The translations under genes and the position numbers were made by a program. The notes beneath the pieces were generated by a model. It worked only from the letters and a program-made list of their open reading frames with translations, did not search any database and had not been told where the DNA came from. DNA of 64,000 bases from Escherichia coli (GTDB lineage Bacteria > Pseudomonadota > Gammaproteobacteria > Enterobacterales > Enterobacteriaceae), in NCBI RefSeq assembly GCF_009931435.1, contig NZ_CP043414.1, one strand, 5' to 3'. Shown piece after piece: positions 40,426 through 51,118 of the stretch. Position 1 is the first letter of the stretch. Each line of letters begins with the position of its first letter.

Positions 40426-41157
40426 GTGGCTTATTACAGCATTGGTGATGTTGCTGAACGTTGCGGGATTAATCCTGTCACTCTCCGGGCCTGGCAACGC
40501 CGCTACGGTTTGTTAAAACCACAGCGCAGTGAAGGCGGACACCGACTCTTTGATGAAGAAGACATACAACGCATCGAAGAGATCAAGCGTTGGATAAGTA
40601 ATGGCGTCCCTGTAGGCAAAGTTAAAGCATTACTGGAAACCACCAGCCAGGATACGGAAGATGACTGGAGCCGCCTGCAAGAAGAGATGATGTCAATTCT
40701 TCGTATGGCTAATCCTGCCAAACTACGCGCGAGAATTATTTCACTGGGTCGAGAGTACCCGGTAGATCAATTGATTAATCATGTTTACCTTCCTGTTCGT
40801 CAGCGTCTCGTGCTTGATCACAACACCTCCCGCATTATGAGCAGTATATTTGACGGCGCATTAATTGAATACGCAGCAGCCTCACTTTTCGAAATGCGCC
40901 GTAAGCCCGGTAAAGAAGCCATTCTAATGGCGTGGAATGTTGAAGAGAGAGCACGATTGTGGCTGGAAGCATGGCGTTTATCATTGTCAGGATGGCATAT
41001 TTCTGTCCTTGCTGATCCCATTGAATCGCCGCGCCCGGAACTGTTCCCGACGCAAACATTGATTGTCTGGACAGGCATGGCACCAACGAGAAGGCAAAAC
41101 GAACTTTTACAACACTGGGGTGAGCAAGGTTATAACGTCATCTTTCATGCCCCCTAA
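40426..41157 (+). CDS. bluR: MerR-family transcriptional repressor BluR
   Basis: 243 aa, N-terminal Mer[31 protein letters not shown]; matches BluR (YcgE). Confidence 0.9.
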
Positions 41158-41378
41158 TTTCACCTTTATCCCGCCCCTTAGACAGAATCTTATAATCTGA
41201 ACCCACAACAGCGTTTGTACCGGAGCTGATCCGTTGCAAAATGCTCACCGGGAGAATTCAGGTAACCCCCCCTTTCACACTTTGTACATATCACAGCCAA
41301 AGGACAGACCAGCTTGAAGTGAGAAAACCGATCGTGCACACTACGCACTCTCACAACTAACAAAAGGTTATTATCCTG

Positions 41379-41783
41379 ATGGATCAGGTCGTTGTTTTTC
41401 AAAAGATGTTTGAAAAAGTGAGAAAAGAGCAAAACTTTTCCTGGTTTTATTCAGAGTTAAAACATCACCGTATTGTGCATTACATTTATTATCTGGCTAC
41501 GGATAACATCAGAATTATTACTCACGATGAAACAGTTTTGTTATTAAGAGGAAACCGTAGCCTGTTAAAAGTCAGTACAACCAAAAACCCAGGAAAAATT
41601 AAAGAGGCGGCATTGCTTCATATTTCTGGGAACTCTACATTTTGGGAGTATTGTACAACACTGGCAAGTGCTGGCGTTTTCCGCTGGGTAACCGATGTTA
41701 ATAACAACAAACGCGGCTACTACGCTATTGATAATACGCTGTTGTATGTTGAAGATGTGGAAAATAACAAGCCATTAATCTAG
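41379..41783 (+). CDS. ycgX: DUF1398-family protein YcgX
   Basis: 134-aa translation matches YcgX. Confidence 0.8.
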   Translation: MDQVVVFQKMFEKVRKEQNFSWFYSELKHHRIVHYIYYLATDNIRIITHDETVLLLRGNRSLLKVSTTKNPGKIKEAALLHISGNSTFWEYCTTLASAGVFRWVTDVNNNKRGYYAIDNTLLYVEDVENNKPLI

Positions 41784-42177
41784 CAAAATTTTAACACATC
41801 AGAGATCTATCATAATTCAGTAAAATAACAAAATATTATCAGGAACGAGTTAACGCTGCTCATAACAGTCAAACCGATACTATAAAACCCAATAATTGAA
41901 ACCTTTTCATCATGTCAGTAAGATAGTCATCCTTATGATCTTTATATAAAAAAGCCAACCATGGTGGTTGGCAAAGTGGCACAAACCAGCATAAAAGCTA
42001 TGCTTTGTTTAAAAACCTTCTTTAAATTAAATATATATCGTCCTGACTAAACAGAACTAAAACGGAATGAATTATTTAATCATGTTACTAAATTTGATTT
42101 TGTTTAGCCTCTGTTGAGATCCCTTGTTTTAAATTTCATTTGGATAAAATTCTTAATTAAATCCTTGGGAGTCAATT

Positions 42178-42438
42178 ATGTCTATGCAAAGTCAAGGAAT
42201 GAACTTTGAAATGAACCTATACGCATATTTGAATAAATATGATAGTCGGCTTTCAGAAGAAAAACTTGCAATTGATAAGGCAGTTAGAGATTTATATCTT
42301 TGCAACGAACGCGTGGATAACAAGAGAATTATACTGAAATTGCTCTCATTTTTATCATCTGCTGATGACATTGTTGAAAAAGATATTATCAGGAATGCTT
42401 TGGAAGTGGTGCTTCTTTTTACATTAGACGATATTTAA
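42178..42438 (+). CDS. AriR/YmgB-family small protein (additional paralog)
   Basis: 86 aa; C-terminal two-thirds align with AriR (…DNKRIILKLLSFLSSADDIVEKDIIRNALEVVLLFTLDDI vs …[40 protein letters not shown]); GGGAG RBS 8 nt upstream. Confidence 0.7.
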   Translation: MSMQSQGMNFEMNLYAYLNKYDSRLSEEKLAIDKAVRDLYLCNERVDNKRIILKLLSFLSSADDIVEKDIIRNALEVVLLFTLDDI

Positions 42439-42686
42439 GTCATCTCAGGAGTTTTAATACACGAAGAGTGCCCGGATACTAGCGATTATATTCATATTTA
42501 ATTATGAGTGCGGGGAAAGAGATTATGCATTGGCATATTTCTCTAACGTCCGCGATAGAAAAACAACTTTAAATATAAATAAAGAACAAACCACCTTTGC
42601 ATTCAACCTCATCTGAGCTGACTATAGTACAAATTATATTGATATTCTTTATCAACATCATTGGAACAGAAGAATAAGGCGAAGAA

Positions 42687-43010
42687 ATGAAGTGTATAGT
42701 AATTGATACTGTAATACAACCTTCGTGTGGTATATATTTTTCAGTCATATGGAGCGATATAAAAATGATCATTTGGTATCGTTCAAATATCTTTCTCCCA
42801 CCTGGCAGCATATTTACAGTTATTAAGTCAGGTATTATACTCGAGGATAAAGAATATCCGATCAGTATTTTTAACGTGGCGCTATTCAACAAAAATTTAT
42901 GGAATTTAATCAAAAATAGTCAAGAGTGTCCTACAGAATCAAACAAAATTACGAATAAATGCCTGCATAAGCATTGCATTATGCAAATATGTCCACATGG
43001 TCTCAAGTAA
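42687..43010 (+). CDS. iraM: Anti-adapter protein IraM (stabilises RpoS; PhoPQ-regulated in K-12)
   Basis: 107 aa [31 protein letters not shown]...CPHGLK; matches IraM. Confidence 0.88.
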
Positions 43011-43061
43011 TGGGGGTTATTTAACCTTCCCTATATGCTATAGATAAATCTACCAAAAACT

Positions 43062-43090
43062 GCCCCTTCGTAGAGGGGCTCTATGATTTT
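43062..43090 (+). terminator. Rho-independent terminator after iraM
   Basis: gcccct tcgtag aggggc hairpin followed by T-rich tctatgattttgtttt. Confidence 0.7.
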
Positions 43091-43606
43091 GTTTTATTTG
43101 AAGGCATGGTGCTGAATGTATTCGTTGAATCCAGATTCAACACCTGAAGCTGCACTTAACCCATAATACTTGTTTCTGGTTCCTCTACCGAGTGGTCAAA
43201 CAATGATATGTATGTGACGTCAGAGTTTATTTTTTTAGTGTTTAATGCTATTAATTTAACGTAGTTACCTATCTTTTTTCTACCTTCTGAACTAACCTTA
43301 GGTTTCAACGTATCCGGCAGGAGGGGCTATCCCCAATCTTAAATTTTGCTTCCCGATTTGCTCAAGCCAAAGTTTTAATTTTACAACCTATAAACCTGAG
43401 TTAAATCAACCTCATGGTGCTGTCTGTTCCCGCTGTGGAACAAGACTCACTGCAACATCTTGCATTCCTAAACTTCGCAGAAGGCGATGGGCAAAAACTG
43501 TACTGTAATGTTATTTCGATGTCTCTTATGGTAAATAGGAGGCGTCGAGGCTAAGTGAGTAGCCTGCTTGCTTCTCAAGCCTGGATACTATCAGCATTCA
43601 CGTCAG

Positions 43607-43645
43607 ATGAAATGATGATATTTCGCGTAAGAAAGAGGCATTTTT
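43607..43645. repeat. 39-bp repeat, copy B (see 33961..33999)
   Basis: 37/39 identity to the sequence just upstream of the autotransporter gene. Confidence 0.8.
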
Positions 43646-43744
43646 TTATCAACTTCACATCGGAGATGGTAATAATCCTATGGGTCCAGTCCATATGAGG
43701 GGGTCAACATACTATAAAATTCACAATCATAAATTAACTATATA

Positions 43745-45220
43745 TCAAGAACGCCAAAAAAATCCTGAAAATAGTATAATAACAGGGTAAATTTCAAGTC
43801 GACCAAGAATCATAGCAATACACATGAGATATTTTGCAATATCATTAAGAACACCGAATGAGGATGCGGTAGCCCCAAAACCCAGCCCCATATTATTAAT
43901 GCATGCAGCGACTGTCGCAAATGATGTAAGGAAATCATATCCCATACCGTTTAGCACCAGTATAAAAAACACTGTAAAGAAAGTATAAAGAAAAAAGAAA
44001 CTCCATACAGACCTCATTACGCGGTCTGTAACAATCTTCCCTCCTACATTTACACTAAGCAATGCTCTGGGATGAGAAAGCTGATTTATTTCGTGTTTAC
44101 TTTGTTTAAAAAGTATAAGAAATCTAAGTGATTTAATTCCGCCGCACGTTGAGCCTATACATCCCCCAAAAAAACTTGACAGCAGCAAAAAAACTATCGT
44201 ATGTGTGGGCCAGTTTGAATAATCCTGCGTAGCTAAACCATTATCAGTGAGCATGGAGCTAGCAAGAAAAAACGAATGAACAACACTTCCAGTTAAGTCA
44301 TACATACCTATATGCCAGACCTGGAAAGAGGTAACAATGATAACACCTGAAGCTATTAACAAAAAGAAACGAAGTTCAACATCTCTGAGTAAGGGTTTTA
44401 TTGTTTTCCTGCTTATAACAACATACCAAAGAGTGAAGTTGAAAGCCGATAACAGAGAAAAAGAGCCCGCCACCAGTTCAATCAAATAATTATTGAAATA
44501 ACCGATACTCTCACTATGAGTTGAAAAACCGCCAAGAGAAACTGTAGAAAGTCCATGACAAATAGCATCAAACAACGGCATTCCTGCAAGTCGATAACAA
44601 ACAATACAAGCAATGCCTAATAAAGAATAAGTTATCCAAAGTGTCCGCGACGTATCAGCCAGGCGTGGAGTCAGTTTGTCATCCTTAAATGGTCCTGGCA
44701 TTTCTGACTGATAAAGTTTTGCACCACCAATACCCAATAATGGCAACACAGCAACTGCCAGAACAATAACCCCTAAACCGCCTATAAAATTTAATTGTGA
44801 CCGGTAGAACAAATATGCCCGAGATAATGAACTGACATCATCAATTACTGTTGCTCCTGTTGTTGTTATTCCGGAAACCCCTTCAAACAGCGCGTCAGCA
44901 AACGTTAAATTAAGCTCTGAATCAATCCATAATGGAAATGCGCTAATAATAGAAAATAAAATCCAAAACATTACAATTATAATAAACCCATCACGGGTGC
45001 GTAATTGAATGCCAGATTTTTTAGTGGTATACCACGCTCCGCCACCAATACAAAAAAATATAACAAAAGTAATAAAAAAAACGAACAAGCTTTTTTCTTT
45101 ATAAAACAATGCTACAACCATTGGTGGTAACATTGAAAGACTATAGAGCCAGACCAAGAACCCACACATATGAGTTACAACTCTTACATGAGATGTATTC
45201 ATATCCAAATGTTCTTTCAA
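43745..45220 (-). CDS. TrkH/TrkG-family K+ uptake membrane protein (orphan, AT-rich)
   Basis: About 485 aa multi-TM protein; family-typical segments FADALFEGVSGITTTGATV, GGIKSLRFLILFKQ, ILGRLEIYPVIILFSGFFWRS parallel TrkH (ITDAFFESFSGLTTTGATT, GGLKVIRILLLFKQ, LFGRLEVFTLLVLFTPTFWRE). Track ORF begins with TTG at 45220; first ATG at 45202. Confidence 0.8.
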   Translation of the reverse strand: MKEHLDMNTSHVRVVTHMCGFLVWLYSLSMLPPMVVALFYKEKSLFVFFITFVIFFCIGGGAWYTTKKSGIQLRTRDGFIIIVMFWILFSIISAFPLWIDSELNLTFADALFEGVSGITTTGATVIDDVSSLSRAYLFYRSQLNFIGGLGVIVLAVAVLPLLGIGGAKLYQSEMPGPFKDDKLTPRLADTSRTLWITYSLLGIACIVCYRLAGMPLFDAICHGLSTVSLGGFSTHSESIGYFNNYLIELVAGSFSLLSAFNFTLWYVVISRKTIKPLLRDVELRFFLLIASGVIIVTSFQVWHIGMYDLTGSVVHSFFLASSMLTDNGLATQDYSNWPTHTIVFLLLSSFFGGCIGSTCGGIKSLRFLILFKQSKHEINQLSHPRALLSVNVGGKIVTDRVMRSVWSFFFLYTFFTVFFILVLNGMGYDFLTSFATVAACINNMGLGFGATASSFGVLNDIAKYLMCIAMILGRLEIYPVIILFSGFFWRS

Positions 45221-45629
45221 TTATAACCACCTTACTGCAATGTCATGATTATACTGTATAAATTTTAACTCTTCTTAGATCTTACTTCACTGGTCCTTAT
45301 GAAACAATCAGCAAAATGAATCTTATTATAACACTGTTCGGTTATGTATTGTTGAGCCTTCCCGCTGGGCCTGCATCATTACAAGTCGCTCCCTATGGGG
45401 CTTTGTCGAATAAATAATTTTTCGGTAAGTGTCCCCTGAGCAGGTTGTATCTTCAGGCAGTATGAACACTTTCTGGTATACCTACCTTCGTCATTATGTT
45501 CAGCGTATGCACCATGACCAAAGCCTCTGCAACCGGCCTATCATAATCTAGCAGCATCAGAGAACCTCAGAATAACTGTTTTACCCTGTACATTGCCGTT
45601 TCCGCTATTGAGCAACGATTGTAATCTTT

Positions 45630-47617
<1,988 letters not shown>

Positions 47618-48113
47618 TCAATCGCTGATACGCGACTGCACAGTTACGGTCGGCATACTCACCGGGCCAGTAACCCGCTCCTTTTTGGGGTGGGATGAGC
47701 GCGCTGATTTTCACACGGCGCAGCTGCTCGTAACAGAGCCGAGAGGCGTAAACTCCGTCTGCTGCTGTCCTGATTTTTTGATGGGTTTGCCGGATTAATC
47801 CGGCTACACCTCTACATCCGTTACGCTGAATGCTGAGGTCGCCCTTGGGAAGAAGGCATTGCTGACTTATACCAATCCGAAATCACCTACTCGTCCAACC
47901 AGACAGGGAGGGGCCTCGGTTGATAAGAGCTCTGTTATTGATGTGCCAGTTGGTGATTCTAACTTTTGCTTTGTAACGGGACGAGCCGTGTTGGCAGATG
48001 ATGTGTGGTCTGATCCTTAAACTCAGTAAAAGTACGATTTATTCAAAAAAGCCCCTCCACTATGATTTCGATTTAAGGGGCTGATGATTATGTAACGCGA
48101 ATTTACCGGATCC

Positions 48114-49499
<1,386 letters not shown>

Positions 49500-49811
49500 T
49501 CAGGGGGGTTGATATTCCGGATCGTGCCGTGTTTGCCCACGGCTCCCCCTGGAGAGCTGCAGACCTGTTTATTTAACTCGCACAGCGCCGGGGCCTGTCA
49601 GTAAACAGGGAGCATAACCGTCGTGCCATTAAACGCCAGACGGGAGATCATTATTATTTTATTAATACAGATCCGTTGCATTCCGGTCTTTACCGCAGTT
49701 TAAAAGAAAAGAGAATAGGGACTTAGGCAGTAGAGCAGTCATTGGACAGACCACACTACCCCAAACTAGCAGGGGAGTTTTGATAAAATTTTAATAACCG
49801 TTAGCAGGCTA

Positions 49812-49845
49812 ACAAAAAAACAACGGGCGTGTTATACGCCCGTTT
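49812..49845 (-). terminator. Rho-independent terminator after icd
   Basis: On the minus strand: aacgggcgt ataac acgcccgtt hairpin followed by tttttttg. Confidence 0.8.
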
Positions 49846-49867
49846 CAATATTTAACACATGTAGTGA

Positions 49868-51118
49868 TTACATATTCTTGATGATCGCGTCACCAAACTC
49901 TGAACATTTCAGCAGTTTAGCGCCTTCCATCAGACGTTCGAAGTCATAGGTTACGGTCTTGGCATTGATTGCGCCTTCCATACCTTTAACAATCAGGTCA
50001 GCCGCTTCAGTCCAACCCATATGGCGCAGCATCATCTCAGCGGAGAGGATGATAGAGCCTGGGTTAACTTTGTCCTGACCAGCATACTTCGGCGCAGTAC
50101 CGTGGGTGGCTTCAAACAGCGCGCATTCGTCACCGATGTTTGCGCCTGGGGCGATACCGATACCGCCAACCTGCGCTGCCAGAGCATCAGAAATGTAGTC
50201 ACCGTTGAGGTTCATACAGGCGATAACGTCGTATTCAGCCGGACGCAGCAGGATCTGTTGCAGGAATGCGTCAGCAATCACGTCTTTAATAACGATCTCT
50301 TTGCCGGTGTTCGGGTTTTTGACTTTCAGCCACGGCCCGCCGTCGATCAGTTCACCGCCAAACTCTTCACGCGCCAGCTGGTAACCCCAGTCTTTAAACG
50401 CGCCTTCGGTGAACTTCATGATGTTGCCTTTGTGCACCAGGGTCACAGAGTCACGGTCGTTAGCAATTGCGTATTCGATCGCGGCACGAACCAGACGTTT
50501 GGTGCCTTCTTCCGAACACGGCTTGATACCGATACCGCAATGTTCCGGGAAGCGAATTTTCTTCACGCCCATCTCTTCACGCAGGAATTTAATCACTTTC
50601 TCAGCGTCGGCAGAATCAGCTTTCCATTCGATACCCGCATAAATGTCTTCCGAGTTTTCACGGAAGATAACCATATCGGTCAGTTCAGGATGTTTAACCG
50701 GGCTTGGGGTGCCCTGATAGTAACGTACCGGACGCAGGCAGATGTAGAGATCCAGTTCCTGACGCAGAGCTACGTTGAGAGAACGAATACCGCCGCCAAC
50801 CGGAGTGGTCAGAGGGCCTTTAATGGCAACGCGATATTCACGAATCAGATCAAGGGTTTCAGCAGGCAGCCAGACGTCCTGACCATAAACCTGTGTGGAT
50901 TTTTCACCGGTGTAAATTTCCATCCAGGAGATTTTACGCTCGCCTTTATAGGCTTTCTCGACTGCAGCGTCGACCACTTTCAGCATGGCTGGGGTTACAT
51001 CTACACCGATTCCATCACCTTCAATGTAAGGGATAATCGGATTTTCAGGAACGTTGAGTTTGCCGTTTTGCAGGGTGATCTTCTTGCCTTGTGCCGGAAC
51101 AACTACTTTACTTTCCAT
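49868..51118 (-). CDS. icd: NADP-dependent isocitrate dehydrogenase
   Basis: 416 aa [45 protein letters not shown]...; matches Icd. Confidence 0.96.

What the first reader, a model, noticed from the sequence alone, without database searches (positions are those of the whole stretch)
43100..43744. About 650 bp without any ORF of 60 aa or more downstream of iraM, containing repeat copy B and palindromic segments
Both strands lack long ORFs in this stretch. It contains a possible 46-codon ORF (about 43423..43563: MVLSVPAVEQDSLQHLAFLNFAEGDGQKLYCNV...), several imperfect palindromes, and repeat copy B. As the left edge of the island it is a candidate for an attachment-site remnant, a small RNA or a micro-protein.
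Basis: seen in the sequence. Interest (0 to 1): 0.3.

Follow-up and report, generated by a model that had tools for sequence, protein, structure and literature searches.

The report
Decayed prophage scraps hiding a small gene
The ORF-free stretch between iraM and trkG is a patchwork of phage-derived leftovers found in only 18 of 5426 complete E. coli genomes. It holds a broken copy of a known prophage small RNA and an unannotated 59-codon zinc-ribbon gene that seems to start at a non-ATG codon; the gene is damaged in this strain.

Summary
The observation mostly holds, but it is not statistically unusual. The longest ORF is 50 aa, and 61% of shuffles also lack an ORF of 60 aa or more. Palindromes are at chance level. 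Repeat copy B is real.

The stretch is not backbone. K-12 homology stops at about 43047-43058 and resumes at 49814. The stretch occurs in 18 of 5426 complete E. coli genomes, always with a divergent iraM allele and a trkG cassette.

It has four parts:
- **43050-43217 (-):** a degenerate relic of the prophage sRNA STnc100. Its terminator hairpin (43062-43079) also looks usable as the iraM terminator.
- **43329-43508 (+):** a 59-codon CxxC...CxxC small gene, behind AGGAGG and an ATC codon. It is related to YmcF and the ECs_2282 family, conserved in 10 enterobacterial chromosomal loci and 34 viral contigs, with dN/dS of 0.09-0.26. This window carries a private Cys8-to-Phe change. Three other strains carry independent knock-out-type changes.
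- **43606-43646:** a 41-bp fragment of the ymgJ 3' end (copy B).
- **43695-43744:** trkG 3' flank shared with the Rac prophage.

No attachment-site features were found. Overall this is ordinary island decay with one modestly interesting unannotated gene.

The parts
43011..43058 (+). iraM 3' flank that is still homologous to K-12. The junction between backbone and island falls at about 43047-43058.
   Evidence: blastn against K-12 locus L003 ends at 43047. The MAFFT alignment shows residual similarity to about 43058, after which K-12 continues into the icd terminator.
43062..43079 (.). Bidirectional intrinsic-terminator hairpin (GCCCCT...AGGGGC). On the + strand it is placed to serve iraM. On the - strand it is the terminator of the STnc100-like relic.
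   Evidence: The terminator scan hits both strands, 5 sites against 0.7 expected in shuffles. It aligns to the terminator helix of Rfam STnc100 and to the O157 prophage copy. Its use by iraM is inferred from position only.
43050..43217 (-). Degenerate relic of the prophage sRNA family STnc100 (RF02076; related to PasD).
   Evidence: cmscan gives 22.2 bits, E 0.092, against a gathering score of 47. blastn gives 66% over 135 nt, E 9e-10, to O157 prophage locus L004 250-387, which is a genuine STnc100 at 158.9 bits. The alignment shows a 24-nt deletion and a lost CCGGG/CCCGG hairpin. The extent beyond 43190 is less certain.
43319..43324 (+). Shine-Dalgarno-like AGGAGG, 4 nt upstream of the ATC codon.
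   Evidence: GGAGG followed by ATY is invariant in all 10 enterobacterial chromosomal relatives and the window, while other Gly codons in the ORF vary at the third position.
43329..43508 (+). Unannotated 59-codon small zinc-ribbon gene (CxxC...CxxC, basic C-terminal tail). Related to YmcF and the ECs_2282 family. The start is putatively the ATC at 43329; the stop is TAA at 43506-43508.
   Evidence: NCBIfam NF047912 E 1.9e-4. P0001 is 63% identical, E 2e-19. tblastx E 2e-26 with a coincident stop. Nine genome loci, 34 viral-contig loci and 39 library representatives, including P0006 which starts MPNLKF with ATG at the same codon. dN/dS is 0.09-0.26. No gene is annotated here in any of the 18 RefSeq genomes.
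43350..43352 (+). Codon 8 is TTC (Phe) in this window. It is TGC (Cys, first zinc ligand) in all 9 other E. coli genotypes examined. This is a private, probably inactivating substitution (G43351T).
   Evidence: Alignment of 10 genotypes. Cys8 is invariant in the 11-sequence family alignment.
43548..43565 (+). Hairpin AGGCTA...TAGCCT downstream of the small gene. Relatives have a GC-rich hairpin in the equivalent position right after the stop codon.
   Evidence: Terminator-like site. Downstream hairpins are visible in the relatives and one was detected by the scan in L011.
43452..43556 (+). Stretch covering the 3' third of the small gene plus its downstream flank. It also survives as a fragment in an O157:H7 lambdoid prophage, between the P/ren-like genes and the nin region.
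   Evidence: 79.4% over 107 bp, E 3e-13; annotation; alignment.
43414..43554 (+). Judged spurious: it is the +1 frame overlapping the conserved small gene.
   Evidence: ORF list. Frame comparison across relatives. Purifying selection is seen in frame 0.
43606..43646 (-). Repeat copy B: an isolated 41-bp fragment of the ymgJ 3' end (the last 14 codons, KKCLFL.R.IIISS). It also contains the start of the ORF that follows ymgJ. The flanks are unrelated.
   Evidence: 95% to 33960-33999. Hits ymgJ in most of the 4231 genomes with any match. Three-way alignment. YmgJ translation.
43695..43744 (-). 3' flank of the trkG cassette, shared with the Rac-prophage trkG of K-12 and BL21.
   Evidence: Homology to the Rac trkG region covers 43695-45393 at 89.5%.

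Best explanation
The 43048-43744 stretch is non-backbone DNA: a compacted mosaic of phage-derived leftovers lying between the convergent genes iraM (+) and trkG (-). It belongs to a roughly 6.8-kb island (43048-49813) wedged between iraM and the icd terminator, beside a known prophage integration hot spot.

From left to right it holds four pieces.

1. A decayed copy of the prophage sRNA STnc100 on the minus strand. Its still-intact terminator hairpin is bidirectional and is positioned to stop iraM transcription as well.

2. A self-contained small-gene module on the plus strand: AGGAGG, an ATC codon in the start position, 59 codons encoding a four-cysteine zinc ribbon with a basic tail, and a downstream hairpin. 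The gene belongs to a family that rides at the ends of prophages, often just downstream of a genuine STnc100, and also sits at varied chromosomal sites in Enterobacteriaceae. The family is under purifying selection. Translation most likely starts at the non-ATG codon, as annotated for its distant relative YmcF (ATT). In this window the first zinc-ligand cysteine is mutated to Phe, so this copy is probably inactive.

3. A 41-bp scrap of the ymgJ 3' end with no evident function.

4. The 3' flank of a trkG cassette like the one in the Rac prophage.

Shown: the homologies, the boundaries, the population frequency, the selection on the coding frame and the mutations. Inferred: phage origin of the whole stretch, use of ATC as the start codon, loss of function from C8F, and dual use of the terminator. 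The biochemical role of the zinc-ribbon protein is unknown.
For: Rarity and boundaries:
- Present in 18 of 5426 genomes.
- The same 18 genomes carry the divergent ariR-like/iraM block.
- K-12 homology ends at 43047 and resumes at 49814.
- Rac trkG homology covers 43695-45393.
- The icd-side end of the island, 49755-49813, resembles the e14 attL-side flank.

STnc100 relic:
- Rfam gives 22.2 bits here.
- 66% identity, E 9e-10, to an O157 prophage locus that is itself a 158.9-bit STnc100 next to AgvB.
- The literature treats STnc100 as a prophage marker (bioRxiv 10.64898/2026.05.13.724894).

Small gene:
- NCBIfam ECs_2282 family hit.
- P0001 at 63% identity, E 2e-19, with a weak YmcF-like Pfam hit.
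- Ten enterobacterial chromosomal loci keep a 56-62-codon ORF, the four Cys and GGAGG-N4-ATY. Several have an in-frame stop 10-13 codons upstream and no canonical start in between.
- dN/dS is 0.09-0.26.
- 39 library representatives, one of which (P0006) begins MPNLKF with ATG at the same codon.
- 34 viral-contig loci. In the four whose neighbours were examined, the gene lies after tail-fibre-like ORFs (named from their sequence, not tested). In four of the seven loci scanned with Rfam, a genuine STnc100 lies about 300 bp upstream, and one of these has tmRNA nearby.
- K-12 ymcF is annotated with an ATT start.

Population data: 9 of 10 E. coli genotypes have Cys at codon 8; only the window has Phe.
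Against: - No expression data of any kind. Use of ATC as the start is inferred, and ATC is a weak initiator (my own knowledge).
- The viral clade has ATG at codon 4 and ATA or GTA at codon 1. So the start position is not uniform across the family, and GGAGG could instead be conserved as coding sequence (Gly-Gly) or as part of a GGGG/CCCC mini-hairpin.
- The upstream ACGATATATCC box shared by most relatives is not recognisable in E. coli, and no sigma-70 consensus promoter was found.
- In the window the STnc100 relic is inverted relative to the small gene, unlike the phage arrangement, so the two may be independent scraps.
- No match in the INPHARED phage collection by DNA or protein.
- The protein scores below the curated cut-offs of both named families.
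- The AlphaFold model was poor, pLDDT 58.
Confidence: 0.72

Rival explanations
1. The small zinc-ribbon gene is still functional in this strain. The neighbouring Cys7 (CFPIC, a CxxxC spacing) substitutes for the lost Cys8, and the ATC start gives low but sufficient expression.
For: The ORF is otherwise intact, with its SD and downstream hairpin. Cys7 sits directly next to the lost ligand, and FCCP variants exist in the family.
Against: Cys8 is invariant in all 11 aligned sequences and in the other 9 E. coli genotypes. Three other strains carry clearly destructive singletons, which suggests there is no constraint in E. coli.
Confidence: 0.15
2. The minus-strand 43050-43217 element is a working sRNA: a divergent STnc100/PasD-type variant rather than a relic.
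For: The terminator is intact, one internal hairpin is retained (43124-43141), and the fold z-score is -2.0. The PasD/STnc100 family is known to diverge strongly while staying functional.
Against: It scores 22 bits against a 47-bit cut-off. A 24-nt deletion removes the 5' strand of the long-range helix, and a further hairpin is lost. No promoter-like site lies upstream on the minus strand.
Confidence: 0.15
3. The stretch is the attachment-site scar (attL or attR) of the element that brought in the island.
For: It lies at the island's left edge, next to the icd hot spot. The other island end resembles the e14 attL-side flank.
Against: No tRNA or tmRNA. No icd 3' duplicate appeared at the left end in the K-12 comparison. 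No direct repeat was evident between the two junctions as read by eye. The island sits about 54 bp beyond the icd stop, not inside icd where e14 inserts.
Confidence: 0.05
4. The reader's 46-codon ORF (43414-43554) encodes a real micro-protein.
For: It has an ATG start, and the +1 frame is open in several relatives.
Against: The ATG arises from the conserved His-Gly codons (CATGGT) of frame 0. The substitution pattern shows selection on frame 0. There is no Shine-Dalgarno sequence and no family hit. The openness of the +1 frame elsewhere is in GC-rich genomes.
Confidence: 0.03

Closest known systems
YmcF (Pfam PF23641, 'cold shock small protein', downstream of cspG in E. coli K-12) and the NCBIfam NF047912 ECs_2282 family of putative zinc-binding proteins
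   Same: About 60 aa. An N-terminal x-F-x-C-P-x-C and a second CxxC about 22 residues later. YmcF is annotated with a non-ATG start (ATT), which parallels the ATC/ATT seen here.
   Different: Scores fall below both curated cut-offs: 21.8-31.6 bits against 37, and about 21 bits or no hit against 27. This subfamily has a distinctive PHGAVCSxCG core and a basic RRRRW-K tail. It is not linked to csp genes. It is found at prophage ends and at varied chromosomal sites.
STnc100 (Rfam RF02076), a prophage-encoded Hfq-type sRNA related to PasD
   Same: Collinear 66% identity to a genuine copy, the same terminator hairpin, and a prophage-type neighbourhood.
   Different: 22 bits against a 47-bit cut-off. 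The window copy has a 24-nt deletion and lost helices. It lies between chromosomal iraM and trkG rather than downstream of Q and the tRNAs, or of tail fibres.
trkG cassette of the Rac prophage (E. coli K-12)
   Same: 89.5% identity over 43695-45393, including 50 bp beyond the stop codon.
   Different: Here the cassette is not inside Rac. It lies in an iraM-icd island beside an IS903-like remnant. The 650 bp examined are not part of the shared cassette.
e14 and other elements that integrate at icd
   Same: The same chromosomal neighbourhood. The island's icd-side end (49755-49813) resembles the e14 attL-side flank.
   Different: The insertion point is about 54 bp downstream of the icd stop rather than within icd. 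No icd' duplicate and no integrase appeared in the ORF list or in the RefSeq annotation of two carrier genomes.

Membership tests
STnc100 (RF02076) | Covariance-model score at or above the Rfam gathering score (47 bits) | tested here: not met
   22.2 bits, E 0.092 in a 5-kb search. A genuine copy in L004 scores 158.9 bits.
STnc100 (RF02076) | Sequence homology to a bona fide member | tested here: met
   66% over 135 nt, E 9e-10, to L004 250-387.
STnc100 (RF02076) | Long-range closing helix and internal hairpins of the consensus structure | tested here: not met
   A 24-nt deletion removes the UGGUGAAUCCCCC side, and the CCGGG/CCCGG hairpin is replaced by unrelated sequence. Only the terminator and one shifted hairpin fold. 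This was judged by eye from the alignments.
STnc100 (RF02076) | Expressed, Hfq-associated transcript | not testable with these tools
   No expression data are available.
ECs_2282 family (NCBIfam NF047912) | Whole-protein score at or above the curated cut-off (37 bits) | tested here: not met
   Window protein 21.8 bits, ancestral E. coli version 28.5, relatives 24.4-31.6.
YmcF-like (Pfam PF23641) | Score at or above the gathering score (27 bits) | tested here: not met
   No hit for the E. coli protein at E up to 1. Relatives score 20.7-21.4 bits. YmcF itself scores 168.5.
Four-cysteine zinc-ribbon small proteins (YmcF/ECs_2282-like) | Two CxxC pairs | tested here: not met
   The window has FPIC in place of CPIC, from G43351T. 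The other 9 E. coli genotypes and all relatives keep both pairs.
Four-cysteine zinc-ribbon small proteins (YmcF/ECs_2282-like) | Conserved ORF of about 55-65 codons under purifying selection | tested here: met
   56-62 codons in 11 loci; dN/dS 0.09-0.26.
Four-cysteine zinc-ribbon small proteins (YmcF/ECs_2282-like) | Zinc binding and a zinc-ribbon fold | tested here: inconclusive
   The AlphaFold2 model has mean pLDDT 57.7, too poor for a fold search. Metal binding cannot be tested here.
Prophage attachment-site remnant | tRNA, tmRNA or target-gene duplicate, and direct repeats at both island ends | tested here: not met
   No tRNA or tmRNA in 41000-51000. No icd duplicate appeared at the left end. 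No shared repeat was evident at the two junctions by eye.
Intrinsic terminator | GC-rich hairpin followed by a T run | tested here: met
   43062-43079 on both strands; 43548-43565 on the + strand with a weak tail. This is a pattern match only.

The most novel reading that the evidence does not exclude
The small zinc-ribbon gene is being knocked out repeatedly in E. coli. Among 10 distinct genotypes (19 genomes), the only four substitutions inside the 180-bp ORF are independent singletons, and all four are destructive: the start codon ATC to ACC, Cys8 to Phe, Glu24 to stop, and Cys33 to Phe. That would point to selection against a costly or toxic phage-derived product. The product would normally be kept at low level by a conserved non-AUG start, and it may work together with the linked STnc100 sRNA as a two-part module at the prophage end.
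Probability: 0.12. Interest if true: 0.55.

Novelty: new member of a known kind. Interest (0 to 1): 0.3.

Why it matters
Most of this result is tidy bookkeeping. It fixes the island boundary, explains each piece of an 'empty' intergenic region, and removes a false micro-protein candidate.

The one piece with wider value is the small gene. A conserved family of about 59-residue zinc-ribbon proteins has gone unannotated at this locus in all 18 RefSeq genomes, apparently because there is no canonical start codon. Gene callers catch relatives elsewhere only when an ATG happens to be available, either upstream or at the start position.

It adds a candidate example, alongside YmcF, of a small protein that may start at AUU or AUC. 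It also links that family physically to the STnc100 sRNA at prophage ends. If the recurrent inactivation in E. coli is real, it would give a handle on what such phage 'moron' mini-genes cost their hosts.

Tried and rejected
- **Phage and plasmid DNA searches.** Searching 43040-43700 against INPHARED phages found nothing. PLSDB plasmids gave only the 41-bp ymgJ patch, in records that appear to hold chromosomal ymgJ DNA, several of them chromosome-sized.
- **Protein against phages.** tblastn of the small protein against phages found no match.
- **Other reading frames.** Pfam and NCBIfam scans of all ten stop-to-stop fragments of 37 aa or more found nothing, except the frame that led to the small gene.
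- **My recollection that YnfQ is a YmcF paralogue.** This was wrong. YnfQ is an unrelated 37-aa protein.
- **Literature on YmcF.** No paper describing it turned up in the searchable library.
- **PHROGs.** No family for the small protein.
- **Structure.** The AlphaFold2 model from the 11-sequence alignment was too poor (pLDDT 58) to justify a fold search.
- **Leader RNA structure.** RNAalifold on the region around the start found only a 4-5-bp GGGG/CCCC mini-hairpin, with no covariation.
- **Promoters.** Sigma-70 scans in E. coli and in two relatives found nothing.
- **Copy A.** Rfam on the copy A region found nothing.
- **Gene neighbourhood.** I looked for conserved neighbours of the small gene. 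umuC and yedK flank it only in Leclercia and Silvania; other genera differ.
- **Leclercia neighbours in the window.** I looked for remnants of those neighbours around the window copy and found none.

Full report
**Context.** The window is the E. coli min-ymg-bluF-bluR-ycgX-iraM-icd region. iraM (42687-43010, +) and a trkH-family gene annotated trkG (43745-45202, -) converge on the stretch in question.

Megablast of 43011-43744 finds it in only 18 of 5426 complete E. coli genomes, always as one chromosomal copy at 98.8-99.9% identity. Nothing is annotated in it. The same 18 genomes, and no others, carry the adjacent 41824-43100 block, which holds an extra YmgB/AriR-family gene and a divergent iraM allele.

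**Boundaries.** Against K-12:
- Homology runs at 94.6% up to 41823.
- It drops to 74-80% across 41880-43047, which includes iraM.
- It stops at 43047 and resumes at 49814, just beyond the icd terminator.

A three-way alignment shows that in K-12 the iraM flank runs straight into the icd terminator hairpin. In the window the two are separated by about 6.8 kb.

The island consists of:
- the stretch studied here (43048-43694);
- a trkG cassette that is 89.5% identical to the Rac-prophage trkG region over 43695-45393;
- an IS903-like remnant bounded by inverted repeats at 45397-45415 and 48037-48055, itself split by an IS21-family element at 45631-47584 that two carrier genomes (L001, L002) lack;
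- a 458-aa ORF with no Pfam match.

The last 60 bp before the icd terminator resemble the e14 attL-side flank.

**Checking the observation.** The longest closed ORF in 43100-43744 is 50 aa. However, 61% of shuffles of this 39%-GC stretch also lack an ORF of 60 aa or more, and short inverted repeats are at chance level. The 46-codon ORF exists at 43414-43554. Copy B is real: 43606-43645 against 33960-33999, 95%, E 2e-12.

**Piece 1: an sRNA relic with a shared terminator.** The only Rfam match inside the stretch is a weak one to STnc100 on the minus strand (43050-43175, 22.2 bits, cut-off 47).

A sensitive blastn then showed 66% identity over 135 nt (E 9e-10) between 43056-43190 and an O157:H7 prophage locus. 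That locus is a genuine STnc100 (158.9 bits), lying end-to-end with AgvB, downstream of Q and three tRNAs.

The pairwise alignment shows that the window copy has a 24-nt deletion in the 5' part and has lost the CCGGG/CCCGG hairpin. It keeps the terminator. A 2026 preprint describes STnc100 as a prophage-encoded sRNA, related to PasD, that marks phage origin.

The hairpin at 43062-43079 scores as a terminator on both strands. I infer that it now also terminates iraM, whose K-12 counterpart uses the icd terminator.

**Piece 2: a hidden small gene.** I scanned all stop-to-stop fragments. One frame (43302-43505) hit the NCBIfam 'ECs_2282 family putative zinc-binding protein' (E 1.9e-4).

A protein search found one relative, P0001 (63% identity, E 2e-19, weak Pfam YmcF-like hit), in a Leclercia-like contig. 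An annotation-independent scan of GTDB representative genomes found nine more loci, in Pseudocitrobacter, Leclercia, Pseudenterobacter, Silvania and Phytobacter.

All keep an ORF of 56-62 codons with four invariant cysteines, the core PHGAVCSxCG and a basic RRRRW tail. Pairwise dN/dS is 0.09-0.26, with synonymous sites near saturation.

**Where the small gene starts.** Every one of these enterobacterial chromosomal loci has GGAGG, four bases, then ATC or ATT at the same codon. Several, including the window, have an in-frame stop 10-13 codons upstream and no ATG, GTG or TTG in between.

An exhaustive profile search of 1.8 billion representatives found 39 relatives. One of them, P0006, begins MPNLKF with ATG at exactly that codon. 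K-12 ymcF, the named distant relative, is itself annotated with an ATT start.

I therefore place the gene at 43329-43508 with a probable ATC start. This remains an inference. In the viral clade the ATG is at codon 4 and codon 1 is ATA or GTA. The invariant GGAGGGGCTATYCC could also reflect coding constraint or a tiny GGGG/CCCC hairpin.

The protein scores below the curated cut-offs of both NF047912 and PF23641. It is best described as an unnamed sister subfamily.

**Phage link.** 34 IMG/VR contigs encode relatives. I examined the neighbours in four of them; the gene lies after ORFs that I read as tail-fibre genes from their sequence. Seven loci were scanned with Rfam, and four carry a genuine STnc100 (58-69 bits) about 300 bp upstream on the same strand. 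One of these has tmRNA nearby.

An O157 prophage keeps a 107-bp fragment covering the 3' end of the gene. The co-occurrence of the two elements in the window supports a phage origin for the stretch. In the window, however, the sRNA relic is inverted relative to the gene.

**State of the gene in E. coli.** I aligned the 10 distinct genotypes that, judging by matching identity and bit scores, represent all 19 sequences. Codon 8 is TGC (Cys) in all of them except this window, which has TTC (Phe) through a private G43351T.

The three other substitutions in the ORF are also singletons:
- ATC to ACC at the putative start (strain N96);
- GAG to TAG at codon 24 (strain 2017-02-2CC);
- TGT to TTT at Cys33 (strain 24A16CRGN010).

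Polymorphism density in the ORF (2.2%) is similar to the flanks (3.6%) and to iraM (3.1%), so there is no sign of constraint within E. coli.

All four changes fall in a 'destructive' class that makes up 11% of possible substitutions (P about 1.5e-4). Conditioning on the fact that three of them are G-to-T gives 0.008. This test was defined after seeing the data and rests on four events. I record it as an unexplained pattern, not a finding.

It lies in the +1 frame of the small gene. Its ATG comes from the conserved His-Gly codons (CATGGT). Its apparent conservation is a by-product of frame 0. I reject it.

**Piece 3: copy B.** The 41-bp core (43606-43646) equals the last 14 codons of ymgJ (KKCLFLMRDIIISS in K-12) together with the start of the next ORF. 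Its flanks are unrelated on both sides.

A larger duplication that had decayed evenly would not leave a 93-95% core with no similarity in the flanks. It is therefore more likely a short captured or filler fragment created when the mosaic was assembled. No Rfam family matches either copy. Indels at 43583 and 43603 in some strains also argue against the 47-aa and 39-aa ORFs in this part being coding.

**Piece 4.** 43695-43744 is the trkG 3' flank shared with Rac.

**Attachment site.** There is no tRNA or tmRNA. The K-12 comparison shows no icd duplicate at the left end, and I saw no junction repeat by eye. The island lies about 54 bp past the icd stop, not in the e14 site. An att-scar reading is not supported.

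**Verdict.** This is an ordinary, rare, phage-derived patchwork. The modest novelty is an unannotated, conserved zinc-ribbon micro-gene with a probable non-AUG start, which is damaged in this particular strain.

Noticed in passing
window 45398-48054 (IS21-family insert at 45631-47584): An IS903-like remnant, bounded by 19-nt inverted repeats, is split by a complete IS21-family element (istA/istB-like ORFs of 340 and 260 aa). Two of the 18 related genomes (L001, L002) lack this insertion.
   Followed up: partly
window 41824-43047: This is a divergent haplotype rather than a simple insertion. An extra YmgB/AriR-family gene (42178-42438, Pfam YmgB E 9e-14) sits where K-12 has ymgK and ymgL, and the iraM allele is only about 80% identical to K-12 at the DNA level. 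The block is found in the same 18 genomes as the island.
   Followed up: partly
window 48114-49490 (-): A 458-aa ORF with no Pfam domain and internal repeats spaced about 450-495 bp apart. It has only weak PHROG hits to families of unknown function. RefSeq annotates it as hypothetical.
   Followed up: partly
window 49755-49813: The sequence just outside the icd terminator resembles the e14 attL-side flank of K-12, although no e14 is present. A 70-90-bp element at 49775-49882 also matches the ycgX-iraM spacer, both in K-12 (75%) and in one of the two carrier loci L001/L002 (83%).
   Followed up: partly
window 29178-33940 (-): Two adjacent minus-strand ORFs of 743 and 845 aa overlap by 7 bp. The 845-aa ORF occupies the position where K-12 keeps only small autotransporter remnants (ycgI) downstream of ymgJ. 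Together they may form one large autotransporter gene, possibly split by a frameshift; this was judged from position and sequence by eye only.
   Followed up: no
L005, L008, L010-L015 (about 60 nt upstream of GGAGG): Most relatives of the small gene share a conserved box, ACGATATATCC, upstream of the start, and a GGGG-CUAU-CCCC mini-hairpin that spans the SD and the ATY codon. Neither matches a sigma-70 consensus, and neither shows covariation. The box is not recognisable in E. coli.
   Followed up: partly
L004 182-436 (O157:H7 prophage): AgvB (96.5 bits, +) and STnc100 (158.9 bits, -) lie convergently, end to end, downstream of Q and three tRNAs. RefSeq annotates part of the STnc100 sequence as a truncated hypothetical protein.
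   Followed up: no
window 43330, 43351, 43398, 43426 and the matching positions in L018, L002, L022: Three of the four singleton substitutions in the small ORF are G-to-T transversions in different assemblies. The cause is not resolved. I speculate it could be oxidative-damage mutation, assembly error or selection.
   Followed up: partly
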